A DNA stretch of 64,000 nt from an uncultured Acidobacteriota bacterium (GCA_963745875.1 CAVUZL010000008.1:20427-84426), one strand, 5' to 3'. Counted from the stretch's first letter, positions 1-12,134 are shown. The notes: generated by a model from the sequence alone, not told the origin. Made by a program: numbers and translations.

Positions 1-727
1 GAGGTGGTGAACCCGGCGGTGCCATCGTTCAACTGCGATGCGGCGTCCAGACACGTGGGCTGAAGCGGATCGAACGCGCGCCACACCTGACCGTCCCGGT
101 ACTGCCAGTCGAGCGGGAGCCTCGCGTCGCTGCCCTGGGTGAGATGCACCTCCACGAGCACTGTCGCAGCGCCGGACAGCGCCAGCAGCACCGGATGCGA
201 GAGGTAGAGCCGTGCGGCGTCCCTTGCGCGAGCGTGTGATCGAATAACGTAAATGGCTGGTGTGAGGCCAGCGCCGTCGTGTGATCGACGTACTCGTCGC
301 GCCCCGGCCACAGGGTCGCGGCCGACGTCAGTGCCGCGGCGCTGATATTCAGCCCCCGCTCTATCTCAAACACGATCGGCGCAGTGGCTCCGGGTGGCGG
401 CGGCGCCGCGACCTGGGTGCCAGCCGGCGCGTTCGCGACGCCGGCCTGCGGATTGAGACTGAAGACGATCGGCGCTCGCGCTTCCGCGGCCGGCGCCGCG
501 TCAAGGCCGAGGAACGAGAAGAAGGCGAGCCGATTTTTGTCGGGCGCCTGGTTGAGGCGCTTCAGGATCGCCTCGACGAGGTGTGCAAAGACCTGCTCGA
601 TCGCCGCACCCGCCGAATCGACCGGCGGATTCCATTGCGGCAGGTAGCCCGCACGCCGCGCGCGAAATTCCGCGACGAGCGCCATCTCGTCACGGTCGTC
701 GAGCACCGGTCCGCCGATGGAACTCAC
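1..727 (-). CDS. eCIS baseplate J-like wedge protein (Afp11/gp6 type), N-terminal part; gene continues past the left window edge; reading frame broken near 221
   Basis: The GTG start at 727 overlaps the gp25 stop (GTGA). 'VSSIGGPVLDDRDEMALVAEFRARRAGYLPQWNPPVDSAGAAIEQVFAHL' resembles the N-terminus of tail-like-particle baseplate J proteins. After 'FTLFDHTLAQGTPH' the tracked frame (ORF 29..1099) turns into Arg/Cys/Trp-rich junk. The -1 frame instead reads 'RLYLSHPVLLALSGAATVLVEVHLTQGSDARLPLDWQYRDGQVWRAFDPLQPTCLDAASQLNDGTAGFTT' down to position 1. Confidence 0.8.
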
Positions 728-1140
728 TGCGCCGACCCCTCCATGAGATAGAACGGGTAGACCAGGTTGTGGAGCGTGTTCGTGCTCCGCATCCGGTAGG
801 TCATCGCGATCTGCACCAGGCCTGTCTCGCTGCCGTCGACGCGCGCCTCGACTTTCAACACATCGATCCGCGGTTCCCACGTGACCAACGACTCCTGCAC
901 CCGCGTCTGAAGCTTCAAGCACGTCGTCTGGTTCAGCGGCTCGAACGTGAACTCGCGAAGGCCGGCGCCAAAATCGGGGCGCATCACGCGTTCGCCGCGA
1001 TTGGTGCCGAGAATGATCCGGATTGCCTGGCGAATATCCTCTTCGTAGCGGGCGACAGTGGTGCTGCCGTCCGGCTGTACGCCGGGGGGAAATCCCCATC
1101 CGATTCCTTGAAACGCCTTCGGTCCGATCTGGCCGTTCAT
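724..1140 (-). CDS. GPW/gp25-family baseplate wedge protein (Afp9 type)
   Basis: Intact 138-aa ORF with ATG at 1140. 'ARYEEDIRQAIRIILGTNRGERVMRPDFGAGLREFTFEP' matches the gp25/GPW signature. It sits between PAAR and baseplate J, as in eCIS and T6SS-like baseplates. Confidence 0.95.
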   Translation of the reverse strand: MNGQIGPKAFQGIGWGFPPGVQPDGSTTVARYEEDIRQAIRIILGTNRGERVMRPDFGAGLREFTFEPLNQTTCLKLQTRVQESLVTWEPRIDVLKVEARVDGSETGLVQIAMTYRMRSTNTLHNLVYPFYLMEGSAQ

Positions 1141-1144
1141 CGCG

Positions 1145-1440
1145 TCACCCTCCGATCGACACGGTCGGACAGCCGGCCGCGATGGTGTTCGGTCCGCCCG
1201 CCTCGGTAATCACGTCGCCCTGGCGCGCGGCCGCGAAACCGTTGATGGAAACCGTCAGGCTCGCCATCGTGACCACGCCTCCGACGTGCGGCTGGACGCC
1301 ATTGACGAGTGGGCACGCAGCTGATCGACATCGGCGCACCACGCCGGCTGGCTGCCGATGGTCACATCGGGACTTCCCGGTCCGGGCCCGAGCGGCGTCC
1401 CGTGACCCGTCATGTCTCCCACGCGTGCGGCAGGCGGCAT
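1145..1440 (-). CDS. PAAR-domain spike-tip protein (Afp10 type); frame broken near 1320
   Basis: ATG at 1440 is preceded by GAGGAG. 'MPPAARVGDMTGHGTPLGPGPGSPDVTIGSQPAW' (frame of ORF 1255..1533) continues as 'ACPLVNGVQPHVGGVVTMASLTVSINGFAAARQGDVITEAGGPNTIAAGCPTVSIGG*' in the frame of ORF 1145..2122. Adding one base near 1320 gives a PAAR protein of about 98 aa. Confidence 0.85.
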
Positions 1441-10900: not shown

Positions 10901-11282
10901 CTTTCAACGACGTCAGCTCCCGATCGTGGCGGCGTATCGTCGCATGCAATGTCTCGACGATTTCCGCGGGCGACATCTCATCGAGGACTCGCCGGTGCGG
11001 CTTCAGCTCGTAGACCATCCCGCCCTGTCCGCTGGCGGTCACCGTCATGATTTGCGCGTTCGGCCACCGGGCAAACAGCCCGGGCACGACCACTGCATCG
11101 TCCGCCGCGGTGAGACCGACGACGACGGCATCGGGGCGTTCCGAGGGACCGCTCAGCATGTCGAAGGTCGAACGCGGATCCTTCAGGAGTGCGCAGTCGT
11201 CACGCATCTGGACGGCGTGCTCGAACATTTCTCGGAGTAGCGGCGGCATATGGAGGAGGAGGATCCGAACGGGTTCAGCCAA
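10884..11282 (-). CDS. Hypothetical protein, possibly a CheY-like pseudo-receiver
   Basis: 132-aa ORF with a TTG start; its stop overlaps the ATPase start. An alternating beta/alpha pattern ('VRILLLHMPPLLREMFEHAV', 'PDAVVVGLTAADDAVVV', 'AQIMTVTASG') resembles a receiver fold without the acidic pocket. The assignment is weak. Confidence 0.45.
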   Translation of the reverse strand: MAEPVRILLLHMPPLLREMFEHAVQMRDDCALLKDPRSTFDMLSGPSERPDAVVVGLTAADDAVVVPGLFARWPNAQIMTVTASGQGGMVYELKPHRRVLDEMSPAEIVETLHATIRRHDRELTSLKGGRNE

Positions 11283-11435
11283 CTCTCGGTCATTCTGCGT
11301 CGGTGGAGTGGCTTCTGAAATCCGCCGGGCGGTTCAAATTGGGTTCAGAGGGAAGATTTAGACCCTCTGGCGCAGGAGCTGATTCGAAGGATTCATGACG
11401 CGGAGAGCAAGGGCGGACCCACCCGTGTGGTCGAA

Positions 11436-12134
11436 TCAGCTGGTGCGGCGGGTCGACGATGTCTGCGGGAGGCTGGCTTTGGCAACGCGTCGGACGCCGG
11501 CGGCTGCCTGGCCGCGCGTTGATACCTGGAGCTTCTCGAGCACGTGATGGACATGGTTCTTGACGGTCGCTTCGGAGATATTCAAGGCACTTGCGATCTC
11601 CTTGTTGCTCAGTCCCTGCCGGATCAGCCCGAATACCTGTCCCTCTCGGATCGTGAGGCCCGGCCACGGGACATCGTCGGCGGACGACTCTCGCCGATGG
11701 GCCGCGCGGCGCAGTAACTGCGCGGCGAGCCTCGGAGTACAGAGCAGTTCTCCGGCGACCGTTCTTTTGACGGTTTCGGCGAGTTCGGAGATCGAACTCT
11801 GTGGGGTGACGAAGCCGTCCGCTCCCGCCTCGGCGTATTCGAGAATGGTGGTGATGTCTTCGCGCACCGCGAACGCGATGATGCAGGTGCTCGCGCTCTC
11901 GACGCGTAACGCGCGAATCAACTCCATCGATTCGCAAAAGGACACGTCGACGATCGCAGCGTCGGGCTGACGCGCGCGGGCAATCGTCAGCGCGTCCGGC
12001 GCCGATGCCGCCGTTCCCGCGATCGAGAATCCCGAGTGCGCGCTCAGCAAGGTCGAGAGACCATCGCGGTACAGTCGCACGGAAACGGCAATCAACAGGC
12101 TGATTGGCTTAGATGCACTTGAATCGGCATCCAT
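11436..12134 (-). CDS. LuxR/NarL-family response regulator with an atypical receiver domain
   Basis: 232-aa ORF. The C-terminal HTH 'LTIREGQVFGLIRQGLSNKEIASALNISEATVKNHVHHVLEKLQV' is LuxR-type. The N-terminal receiver has 'LLIAVSVRL' where the DD pair normally sits, but keeps 'DAAIVDVSF'. Confidence 0.9.
   Translation of the reverse strand: MDADSSASKPISLLIAVSVRLYRDGLSTLLSAHSGFSIAGTAASAPDALTIARARQPDAAIVDVSFCESMELIRALRVESASTCIIAFAVREDITTILEYAEAGADGFVTPQSSISELAETVKRTVAGELLCTPRLAAQLLRRAAHRRESSADDVPWPGLTIREGQVFGLIRQGLSNKEIASALNISEATVKNHVHHVLEKLQVSTRGQAAAGVRRVAKASLPQTSSTRRTS

What the first reader, a model, noticed from the sequence alone, without database searches (positions are those of the whole stretch)
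1..12134. Extracellular contractile injection system (phage-tail-like particle) operon with its own regulators, truncated by the window edge
Fifteen co-oriented genes, many with 1-8 nt overlaps (ATGA, GTGA), encode a full tail trunk and inner baseplate. These are an Afp15-type AAA+ ATPase, a DUF4255 cap, sheath, tube, chaperone, tape-measure-like ORF, LysM/tube-initiator, gpD hub, spike, PAAR, gp25 and baseplate J. No capsid, portal, terminase, lysis or integrase genes are present, so this is not a prophage. No TssB/C pair, TssJLM or ClpV is present, so it is not a T6SS. The ATPase plus DUF4255 pair is the eCIS hallmark. The outer baseplate, fibres and cargo must lie left of position 1. No payload or target is visible, and the host is a high-GC environmental-type diderm, so the particle is probably uncharacterised.
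Basis: partly seen in the sequence, partly recalled or inferred. Interest (0 to 1): 0.75.

Follow-up and report, generated by a model that had tools for sequence, protein, structure and literature searches.

The report
Phage-tail-like injection system operon, truncated
The region really is the first two thirds of a phage-tail-like protein-injection machine (eCIS superfamily, lineage II) in a soil acidobacterium. This is a common, already catalogued kind of gene cluster, but it shows a conserved programmed frameshift in its tail-assembly chaperone that I could not find described.

Summary
Confirmed. Window 1-12134 (minus strand) holds one tight operon. Its genes, in order, are a LuxR/GerE regulator, a small pseudo-receiver, an AAA+ ATPase, a Pvc16_N cap, sheath, gp19 tube, a tail-assembly chaperone, a tape-measure-like ORF, a LysM tube initiator, a gpD-like hub, a gp5-type spike, PAAR, gp25 and the start of baseplate J.

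1. In the window, gpD, spike, PAAR and J are each broken by single-base deletions, seven in all. All seven bases are present in three independent assemblies of the same population. gltB and an ABC transporter elsewhere in the window are also frameshifted. These are assembly errors, not decay.
2. A 99.2%-identical contig continues the operon 9.3 kb to the left with J, a second J-like gene, two unknown genes and a Tail_P2_I/NHL protein. No capsid genes appear. No cargo was found.
3. The host is a Vicinamibacterales bacterium. Gene content fits eCIS subtype IIa/IIc. The nearest solved relatives (Streptomyces and haloarchaeal CIS) do not act extracellularly, so the "extracellular" label is unproven.

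In passing: the chaperone gene reads into a DUF6760 frame through a conserved -1 frameshift site, a G-run followed by a hairpin. This matches the phage G/GT arrangement. The cluster is a new member of a known kind.

The parts
12135..12709 (.). Divergent intergenic region upstream of the operon. It contains one sigma-70-like match at 12221..12192 on the minus strand.
   Evidence: No coding-like frame. Consensus match TTGACC-18-TATCGT, which is weak evidence only. Synteny with the 87% relative L003 ends upstream of the regulator gene.
11436..12134 (-). NarL/LuxR-type response regulator (232 aa) with an atypical receiver domain.
   Evidence: Pfam GerE 1.5e-17 and Response_reg 5e-10. In an alignment to NarL (NarL sequence from memory), the acidic DD pair, the conserved S/T and the conserved K are replaced, while the Asp59 equivalent is kept. 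The gene is conserved in L003, L004 and L058.
10884..11282 (-). Small stand-alone pseudo-receiver (114-132 aa; start codon uncertain).
   Evidence: No Pfam, NCBIfam or PHROG hit. The homologue in L058 is in the same position (blastp 1e-9). hhalign against a receiver-domain profile gives probability 92%, E 5.6e-7. Substitutions versus L003 by codon position are 18/11/52.
8720..10891 (-). Afp15/Pvc15-type AAA+ ATPase (723-726 aa).
   Evidence: Pfam WHD PF22977 1e-38 and AAA 4e-32. Eighty metagenomic homologues were fetched, most of them followed by cap-sheath-tube.
7884..8723 (-). Tail terminator/cap (Afp16/Pvc16 family) with a C-terminal CarboxypepD_reg domain.
   Evidence: Pfam Pvc16_N 1e-28. 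PDB matches: Streptomyces CIS cap 9GTS 2e-17, Pvc16 7e-11, Afp16 8e-10. ATGA overlap with the ATPase gene.
5853..7850 (-). Contractile sheath (665 aa, single copy).
   Evidence: Pfam Phage_sheath_1 and Phage_sheath_1C. 1969 homologues at E<=1e-20. Best PDB matches are 8BKY/8BL4 (5e-95) and 9EZM (2e-73).
5402..5836 (-). Inner tube protein (144 aa).
   Evidence: Pfam Phage_T4_gp19 3.4e-43.
4993..5391 (-). Tail assembly chaperone (121 aa in relatives). In the window its TAG stop at 5026-5028 reads GAG, which extends the ORF by 11 codons.
   Evidence: PHROG 508 tail assembly chaperone, 5e-9. Substitutions by codon position are 6/1/37 versus L003. The stop is present in L004 and L098.
4847..5038 (-). 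-1-frame DUF6760 extension of the chaperone. The G7 slippery run is at 5032-5038, the hairpin at 4990-5027 and the stop at 4847-4849.
   Evidence: Pfam DUF6760, 59 bits. The frame is -1 in 31 of 32 loci. A G-run of at least 5 is present in 26 of 27 distinct loci, and 13 of 27 have no start codon in that frame. In the hairpin 93% of cells are paired, with two compensatory pairs. In-frame fusions P0437, P0449 and P0457 exist, and P0437 lies in a CIS locus.
4027..4869 (-). Tape-measure-like protein (280 aa). It is Arg-rich and fast-evolving, with a conserved C-terminal helix motif.
   Evidence: It lies between the chaperone and the tube initiator. Lengths of 259-299 aa are kept in L003, L005 and L015. 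Only the C-terminal motif ...VIxQLDRRMxAWRERxG is conserved, in at least 17 loci. No family hit. The AF2 model has low confidence (pLDDT 37) and is helical or disordered. The function is inferred.
3364..4017 (-). Tube initiator (Afp7-like) with a LysM domain.
   Evidence: Pfam CIS_tube 1e-33 and LysM 4.5e-8.
2153..3362 (-). gpD/gp27-like hub, the N-terminal half of a split VgrG (403 aa when intact). In the window it is broken by 1-nt deletions at 2515 and 2189.
   Evidence: Intact in L001. NCBIfam VgrG_rel positions 146-347, 4e-20. Phage_GPD 4e-4, below the Pfam cut-off. PHROG 52 tail protein. Deletions mapped.
1453..2142 (-). gp5-type OB-fold spike, the C-terminal half of the split VgrG (230 aa when intact). 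Deletions at 2027, 1512 and 1455, the last one inside the stop codon.
   Evidence: Pfam Phage_base_V 1e-15 on the L001 copy. VgrG_rel positions 367-520. Deletions.
1145..1440 (-). PAAR tip protein (98 aa when intact). Deletion at 1320.
   Evidence: Pfam PAAR_motif 2.4e-13 on the L001 copy. Deletion.
724..1140 (-). gp25-type baseplate wedge / sheath initiator (138 aa, intact).
   Evidence: Pfam GPW_gp25 1.4e-23. The exact protein is found on three other contigs.
1..727 (-). First 242 codons of baseplate J/Afp11 (about 1143 aa in full). Deletion at 211. The gene runs off the window.
   Evidence: It continues in L001 and L098. It is 65% identical to the 1143-aa P0122. The corresponding full-length J gene on contig L015 matches TIGR02243 in its C-terminal part, and the J of L005 matches Baseplate_J. 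GTGA overlap with gp25.

Best explanation
This is the 5' two thirds of a lineage-II eCIS-superfamily contractile injection system operon in a Vicinamibacterales (Acidobacteriota) chromosome. The system is intact in the natural population. The seven frameshifts in the window are consensus errors of an error-prone assembly.

Inferred working, by homology to phage tails and solved CIS structures:
- gp25, two J-type proteins and a Tail_P2_I/NHL protein form the baseplate.
- They surround a hub made of a split VgrG (gpD-like hub plus gp5-like spike), tipped by PAAR.
- The LysM/CIS_tube protein starts the gp19 tube.
- The tube grows along the 280-aa tape-measure-like protein, helped by a chaperone made in two forms: a 121-aa product and a -1 frameshift fusion to DUF6760.
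- The sheath polymerises around the tube and is closed by the Pvc16_N cap.
- The AAA+ ATPase assists assembly or cargo loading.
- Sheath contraction drives the tube and spike into a target.

Transcription is probably controlled by the adjacent atypical LuxR-type regulator and its pseudo-receiver partner.

I lean towards release as a free particle (about 0.55) rather than an anchored or cytoplasmic mode (about 0.3). The cargo is unknown.
For: Part identities come from Pfam, NCBIfam and PHROG searches. Gene order is conserved in dozens of loci.

Evidence that the indels are artefacts:
- L001, L002 and L098 all carry the seven bases that the window lacks.
- L004 shows no indel over window 4418-16479.
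- gltB is split over at least three frames within 44.0-44.95 kb, yet its pieces align end to end with solved GltB.
- An ABC transporter is shifted near 28.5 kb.
- L098 and L003, from similar assemblies, carry their own private deletions.

Leftward continuation: J, a 750-aa J-like protein, 368-aa and 319-aa proteins, and Tail_P2_I.

Host: SerRS is 94% identical to Vicinamibacterales MAG proteins.

Frameshift evidence.

Regulators.

No transmembrane-like segments were found in the downstream proteins of relative L015. This weakly favours a free particle.
Against: - Nothing here shows expression, assembly or release.
- The nearest characterised relatives by sheath and cap sequence are cytoplasmic (Streptomyces) or membrane-anchored (haloarchaea).
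- No fibre, lysis or cargo gene was identified. No DUF4157/eCIS_core protein is present in the window, L098 or L003, although relatives have one.
- The deletions are not in long homopolymers and cluster in 2.3 kb. A real strain-specific loss cannot be formally excluded without reads.
- The tape-measure role of the 280-aa ORF rests on position and a conserved C-terminus only.
Confidence: 0.8

Rival explanations
1. The cluster works from inside the cell, as its closest characterised relatives do. It would be either free in the cytoplasm and firing on stress to kill the producer (Streptomyces CIS-Sc type), or anchored to the inner membrane for contact-dependent delivery (haloarchaeal or T6SS-iv type). 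It would not be a released extracellular particle.
For: The best solved sheath and cap matches are Streptomyces CIS (8BKY/8BL4 at 5e-95; 9GTS cap at 2e-17) and haloarchaeal CIS 9EZM (2e-73). PVC, Afp and AlgoCIS are about 1e-37 to 1e-40. The modes of action of those relatives are given in PMC10066040 and PMC11566945. No recognisable Afp13-type fibre or lysis gene was found in relatives.
Against: The gene content differs from the Streptomyces subtype IId: the VgrG is split and there are two Afp11 copies. No membrane protein comparable to CisA was seen. The L015 downstream proteins lack hydrophobic segments. The baseplate periphery carries a Tail_P2_I-NHL beta-propeller protein and four paralogous Cys-rich proteins that could be binding modules. 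A diderm envelope makes the Streptomyces mechanism less directly transferable.
Confidence: 0.3
2. The seven deletions are real. This strain would carry a recently inactivated, decaying injection-system operon.
For: All seven indels are deletions. They cluster in 2.3 kb of baseplate and spike genes, mostly outside long homopolymers. Local substitution density is about three times higher than in the neighbouring 12 kb.
Against: Three independent assemblies of the same population lack all seven deletions. Seven indels against about 12 substitutions is far from a neutral ratio. The housekeeping gene gltB and an ABC transporter in the same window are also multiply frameshifted while otherwise perfectly conserved. 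Sister long-read-style contigs show the same kind of private deletions.
Confidence: 0.08
3. It is the tail module of a prophage or an R-type tailocin rather than an eCIS-type system.
For: All structural parts derive from myophage tails. The chaperone with frameshift followed by a tape-measure-like gene is a phage-like arrangement.
Against: The AAA+ ATPase and the DUF4255 cap are present. Phage tails and pyocins lack both (established knowledge; Geller 2021 criteria). There is no capsid, portal, terminase, integrase or lysis gene in 52 kb to the right or 9.3 kb to the left. Related loci in complete genomes have the same stand-alone layout.
Confidence: 0.02

Closest known systems
eCIS lineage II, subtypes IIa/IIc of Chen et al. 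2019 (dbeCIS). The haloarchaeal Halogeometricum borinquense CIS is the characterised IIa example.
   Same: Afp8 is split into gp27-like and gp5-like ORFs. There are two Afp11/baseplate-J copies, PAAR is present and there is a single sheath gene. No Afp14 homologue is detectable by profile, and extra genes have no known domains. The sheath matches 9EZM at 2e-73.
   Different: The host is bacterial, diderm and acidobacterial. No phylogeny against dbeCIS references was run, so the subtype assignment rests on gene content only. The haloarchaeal system is membrane-anchored and T6SS-like. The mode here is unknown.
Streptomyces coelicolor CIS-Sc (subtype IId; PDB 8BKY, 8BL4, 9GTP, 9GTS)
   Same: It gives the best solved-structure matches for sheath (5e-95) and cap (2e-17). 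It lacks a conventional fibre and a conventional tape measure.
   Different: CIS-Sc has a single-ORF VgrG (643 aa, 9GTR) and one Afp11. It sits in a Gram-positive host, acts in the cytoplasm and mediates cell death. The system here has a split VgrG, two J copies and a PAAR.
Afp / PVC / AlgoCIS (lineage I, true extracellular particles)
   Same: The core parts list is the same: tube, sheath, LysM initiator, VgrG, gp25, PAAR, J, AAA+ ATPase and DUF4255 cap.
   Different: Lineage I has two or three sheath paralogues, the ATPase and cap at the 3' end, and Afp12/13/14. Sheath similarity is limited to the C-terminal part (about 1e-37 to 1e-40). Here the ATPase and cap lead the operon.
Phage tail assembly chaperone frameshift (lambda G/GT, P2 E/E+E')
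   Same: Two overlapping frames lie between the tube gene and the tape-measure gene. The second frame is -1 and has no start codon of its own in many loci. There is a slippery run plus a downstream hairpin. The chaperone family hit is PHROG 508.
   Different: It is found in a chromosomal injection-system operon, not in a phage. The slippery element is a G5-7 run, canonical X XXY YYZ only in the G7 clade. The extension is DUF6760. Some lineages encode the fusion in frame. Neither product has been shown experimentally.

Membership tests
eCIS superfamily (Chen 2019 / Geller 2021 operational definition) | Contractile sheath plus gp19-type tube | tested here: met
   Pfam Phage_sheath_1 and 1C, and Phage_T4_gp19 at 3e-43.
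eCIS superfamily (Chen 2019 / Geller 2021 operational definition) | eCIS-specific core: Afp16/DUF4255 cap together with an Afp15-type AAA+ ATPase | tested here: met
   Pvc16_N 1e-28 and WHD+AAA. PDB matches to Pvc16, Afp16 and the Streptomyces CIS cap.
eCIS superfamily (Chen 2019 / Geller 2021 operational definition) | Baseplate and spike set: Afp7 (LysM), Afp8 (VgrG), Afp9 (gp25), Afp10 (PAAR), Afp11 (J). About 10 core genes in one cassette. | tested here: met
   In the window four of these genes carry 1-nt deletions. They are intact in L001 and L098.
eCIS superfamily (Chen 2019 / Geller 2021 operational definition) | Not part of a phage: no capsid, portal or terminase genes nearby | tested here: met
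   Pfam on the large ORFs from 12-57 kb shows housekeeping and metabolic genes. The 9.3 kb to the left in L098 is all baseplate. Sequence beyond that was not seen.
eCIS superfamily (Chen 2019 / Geller 2021 operational definition) | Particles are released and act extracellularly | not testable with these tools
   This needs EM or cryo-ET and activity assays. The nearest characterised relatives act intracellularly or while membrane-anchored.
eCIS superfamily (Chen 2019 / Geller 2021 operational definition) | DUF4157/eCIS_core protein and a toxin cargo in the locus | tested here: not met
   tblastn with two eCIS_core proteins finds nothing in the window, L098 or L003. Such proteins are present in relatives L005, L015, L018 and L099. 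The 3' end of this locus was not seen, so absence is not established.
eCIS subtype IIa/IIc (Chen 2019) | Afp8 split into two ORFs, two Afp11 copies, PAAR present | tested here: met
   403-aa hub plus 230-aa spike. J plus a 750-aa J-like protein in L098, L015 and L005. PAAR. Criteria taken.
eCIS subtype IIa/IIc (Chen 2019) | Phylogenetic placement with dbeCIS reference loci | not tested
Streptomyces-type cytoplasmic CIS (subtype IId) | Single contiguous Afp8 and a single Afp11 | tested here: not met
   Split Afp8 and two J copies. The system is not filed here, despite the best sheath match.
Canonical T6SS | TssB/TssC sheath pair, TssJLM membrane complex, ClpV | tested here: not met
   There is a single phage-type sheath. 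No such Pfam families appear among the large ORFs of the window. TssD and Vgr models hit only weakly.
R-type tailocin / P2-like prophage tail | No AAA+ ATPase and no DUF4255 cap; lysis cassette and fibres adjacent | tested here: not met
   The ATPase and cap are present. No lysis genes were seen.
G/GT-type programmed -1 frameshift of tail assembly chaperones | Chaperone ORF followed by an overlapping -1 ORF, upstream of the tape-measure gene, with a slippery site and a stimulatory structure | tested here: met
   31 of 32 loci are in the -1 frame. 26 of 27 have a G-run of at least 5. 13 of 27 have no start codon in that frame. The hairpin shows covariation. In-frame fusions exist elsewhere.
G/GT-type programmed -1 frameshift of tail assembly chaperones | Both protein products are made | not testable with these tools
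   This needs mass spectrometry or a reporter assay.

The most novel reading that the evidence does not exclude
Lineage-II contractile injection systems are described as lacking a tape-measure module and as carrying unexplained subtype-specific genes. They may in fact keep the complete phage module: a tail assembly chaperone expressed in two forms through a conserved -1 programmed frameshift (G-run plus hairpin) into DUF6760, followed by a short, fast-evolving tape-measure-like protein with a conserved C-terminal helix. I found no description of this in the searchable literature.
Probability: 0.45. Interest if true: 0.55.

Novelty: new member of a known kind. Interest (0 to 1): 0.4.

Why it matters
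As an eCIS locus it adds little. Such clusters occur in about 2% of genomes, more than a thousand are catalogued, and their GerE/BTAD regulators are already described.

Two things are useful:
1. A caution for annotation. This window, and sister long-read-style contigs, carry clustered single-base deletions. These would be read as pseudogenes.
2. The chaperone/DUF6760 frameshift and the tape-measure-like ORF assign a function to three "unknown" lineage-II genes. They offer a testable handle on length control and assembly in the least studied half of the eCIS superfamily, which is being developed as a programmable protein-delivery platform.

Tried and rejected
- Exact-protein look-ups for GltD and for the 100%-identical SerRS returned nothing. 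I could not place the window within its 159.8-kb source contig or walk left on it.
- tRNA and Rfam scans found nothing.
- Single-sequence AlphaFold models of the pseudo-receiver (pLDDT 43) and the tape-measure-like ORF (pLDDT 37) were too poor for fold searches.
- Pfam, NCBIfam and PHROGs gave nothing for the 280-aa ORF, the 132-aa ORF, or the 368-, 319-, 278- and 370-aa downstream proteins of relatives.
- A DUF4157 cargo search in the window, L098 and L003 was negative.
- Literature searches for DUF6760, for frameshift or chaperone together with contractile injection systems, and for dbeCIS with Acidobacteria gave no relevant paper.
- I considered whether the 71-aa ORF at 4881-5096 is a gene and rejected it. 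Its GC3 is 0.51, and the conserved coding frame there is the DUF6760 frame.
- I considered whether the Ser/Thr kinase-AAA_16 gene at 18480-22088 is the partner of the regulator. It is 6 kb away, beyond unrelated genes, so I did not pursue it.

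
Full report
OBSERVATION. The minus strand of window 1-12134 carries one compact gene array.

Pfam identifies the following:
- a GerE/Response_reg regulator (11436-12134);
- an AAA+ ATPase with the WHD PF22977 domain (8720-10900);
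- a Pvc16_N (DUF4255) cap with a CarboxypepD_reg tail (7884-8723);
- a sheath (5853-7850);
- a gp19 tube (5402-5836, E 3e-43);
- a CIS_tube+LysM initiator (3364-4017).

The remaining genes are best read on L001, a 99.6%-identical JGI contig. There they are intact: a 403-aa gpD-like hub, a 230-aa Phage_base_V spike, a 98-aa PAAR, a 138-aa GPW_gp25 and a J-type protein. NCBIfam VgrG_rel covers the hub with profile positions 146-347 and the spike with positions 367-520, so this is a split VgrG. The parts list is therefore confirmed.

SEQUENCE INTEGRITY.
- Alignment to L001 and L002 shows seven single-base deletions in the window, at 2515, 2189, 2027, 1512, 1455, 1320 and 211. There are no insertions.
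- A third independent assembly of the same population, L098 (99.2% identical), also has all seven bases. L098 carries different private deletions of its own.
- L004 covers window 4418-16479 without a single indel.
- Elsewhere in the window, gltB is split across at least three frames within 44.0-44.95 kb. Its pieces still match solved GltB consecutively, at residues 6-452, 460-569 and 743-1481.
- An ABC transporter changes frame near 28.5 kb.
- The 87% relative L003, from a sister ENA assembly with Flye-style contig names, is similarly fragmented.

My reading (inference) is that these are clustered consensus errors, not pseudogenisation. I keep real decay as a rival at about 0.08.

CONTEXT AND HOST.
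- The operon ends upstream at about 12134. Positions 12135-12709 are non-coding, the next genes are divergent, and synteny with L003 stops there.
- The rest of the window is housekeeping or metabolic. It includes S1, a Ser/Thr kinase, quinohemoprotein amine dehydrogenase, permeases, GlnD, GltBD and SerRS. There are no head, packaging, integrase or T6SS membrane-complex genes.
- SerRS is 94% identical to proteins named Vicinamibacterales bacterium. The source contig is 159.8 kb. This supports "high-GC environmental diderm".
- To the left, L098 continues for 9.3 kb with the rest of J (about 1143 aa), a 750-aa second J-like protein, 368-aa and 319-aa proteins, and a Tail_P2_I/NHL protein.
- The same order is found in L015 (79% sheath identity) and in the complete genome of Tunturiibacter lichenicola.

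MECHANISM. The mechanism is inferred from homology to phage tails and solved CIS structures; nothing here is experimental.
- The baseplate is gp25, two J-type proteins and Tail_P2_I.
- The hub is the split VgrG with a PAAR tip.
- The LysM/CIS_tube protein acts as tube initiator.
- The tube is templated on a tape-measure-like protein.
- The sheath is closed by the cap.
- The ATPase is for assembly or loading.
- Contraction expels the tube and spike.

The 280-aa ORF has no family hit. Its position is right for a tape measure. Its length is kept at 259-299 aa in relatives, although the sequence diverges fast. A C-terminal motif...VIxQLDRRMxAWRERxG, is conserved in at least 17 loci. These features fit a tape measure or ejected core protein.

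No cargo is visible. There is no DUF4157/eCIS_core protein in the window, L098 or L003. [quoted passage not shown]

CHAPERONE FRAMESHIFT (noticed in passing, followed up).
- The 121-aa ORF after the tube gene matches PHROG 508, tail assembly chaperone.
- Overlapping its end, in the -1 frame, lies a Pfam DUF6760 domain.
- The -1 relation holds in 31 of 32 loci from Acidobacteriota, Myxococcales and other bacteria.
- A G5-7 run sits just before the zero-frame stop in 26 of 27 distinct loci. In the window clade it reads G GGG GGG.
- 13 of 27 loci have no ATG, GTG or TTG in the -1 frame ahead of the conserved GYP motif.
- Four to five nucleotides downstream is a 12-bp hairpin. In it 93% of cells are paired, against 28-63% when the partners are slid. 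It has two compensatory pairs and a covariation score above all 500 shuffles. It keeps a GTA valine codon that is unusual for these GC-rich genomes (sequence observation).
- In other lineages the chaperone and DUF6760 are one in-frame ORF without a G-run (P0437, P0449, P0457). P0437 sits after the tube genes of another CIS locus.

This is the lambda G/GT and P2 E/E+E' arrangement (established knowledge). Chen 2019 states that Afp14 is generally absent from lineage II and that lineage II has unexplained subtype-specific genes. I found no paper mentioning DUF6760 or a chaperone frameshift in CIS.

REGULATORS.
- The LuxR-type protein has a degenerate receiver. The acidic pair, the S/T and the K are replaced; the Asp is retained (the NarL reference is from memory).
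- The following 132-aa ORF is a stand-alone receiver-like protein (hhalign probability 92%).
- The pair recurs in L003 and in the more distant L058.
- L018 has a BTAD activator at this position instead. Most ATPase-containing loci show neither arrangement by tblastn.
- Geller 2021 already reports GerE next to 25.8% of eCIS loci and lists BTAD as a shell domain. So this is a known feature.

COMPARISON WITH KNOWN SYSTEMS.
- By gene content the system fits Chen's subtypes IIa/IIc: split Afp8, two Afp11 copies and PAAR.
- It does not fit IId, although the Streptomyces IId sheath and cap are the best solved matches.
- Lineage-I particles (PVC, Afp, AlgoCIS) are much more distant.
- The characterised lineage-II systems are cytoplasmic (Streptomyces) or T6SS-like (haloarchaea). 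"Extracellular" is therefore a family name, not a finding.
- The downstream proteins of relative L015 have no hydrophobic segments. The baseplate periphery carries putative binding modules. I lean modestly towards a released particle.

VERDICT. This is a genuine, ordinary lineage-II eCIS-type operon, truncated at the window edge, in an under-sampled phylum. It is a new member of a known kind. The added value is the artefact diagnosis and the chaperone-frameshift/tape-measure module. Interest 0.4.

DEAD ENDS are listed under Tried and rejected.

Noticed in passing
window 4847-5391 (-), with G-run 5032-5038 and hairpin 4990-5027: The tail assembly chaperone ORF reads into a DUF6760 frame through a conserved -1 site (a G5-7 run plus a downstream hairpin). 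The site is conserved in about 30 loci, and in-frame fusions exist in other CIS lineages. I found no description of it in the searchable literature.
   Followed up: yes
window 5026-5028 (-): The chaperone's TAG stop reads GAG in the window only; L004 and L098 have TAG. This lengthens the zero-frame product by 11 codons. It is either a private SNP or another consensus error.
   Followed up: partly
window 41718-46276 (-): The glutamate synthase large subunit gene gltB is split over at least three reading frames between about 44000 and 44950. Its pieces align consecutively to solved GltB. This indicates clustered indel errors in the assembly.
   Followed up: yes
window ~28350-28600 (+): The N-terminus of an ABC transporter (ABC_membrane + ABC_tran, 28527-30017) lies in a different frame upstream. 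This is another likely 1-nt indel.
   Followed up: partly
L015 1-1802 and 22164-23432; L018 5226-7922; L005 13078-14670: The closest relatives carry large eCIS_core (DUF4157) proteins, which are candidate effectors or loaders. [quoted passage not shown] The window's ATPase and cap genes overlap directly, and no such gene is present in the window.
   Followed up: partly
L015 15710-22047 (equivalent region in L098 16114-18117): Four downstream proteins (368, 319, 278 and 370 aa) share an N-terminal motif (...F/YxxGQxL...W.HN...G) but have different, partly Cys-rich C-terminal parts. They may be paralogous baseplate-attached binding proteins. None has a family hit.
   Followed up: no
window 10884-12134 (-): The operon's regulator has a degenerate receiver domain and is followed by a stand-alone pseudo-receiver. 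No histidine kinase is adjacent. This suggests phosphorylation-independent control.
   Followed up: partly
window 48549-53561 (-) and 46398-48548 (-): A 1670-aa protein with PATR autotransporter repeats and a pectate-lyase-like adhesive domain lies directly upstream, in the same reading frame, of an S9 prolyl-oligopeptidase gene. It is unrelated to the injection system.
   Followed up: no
window 18480-22088 (-): A 1202-aa Ser/Thr protein kinase fused to an AAA_16 (STAND-type) ATPase lies 6 kb from the operon. No link to the operon was established.
   Followed up: no
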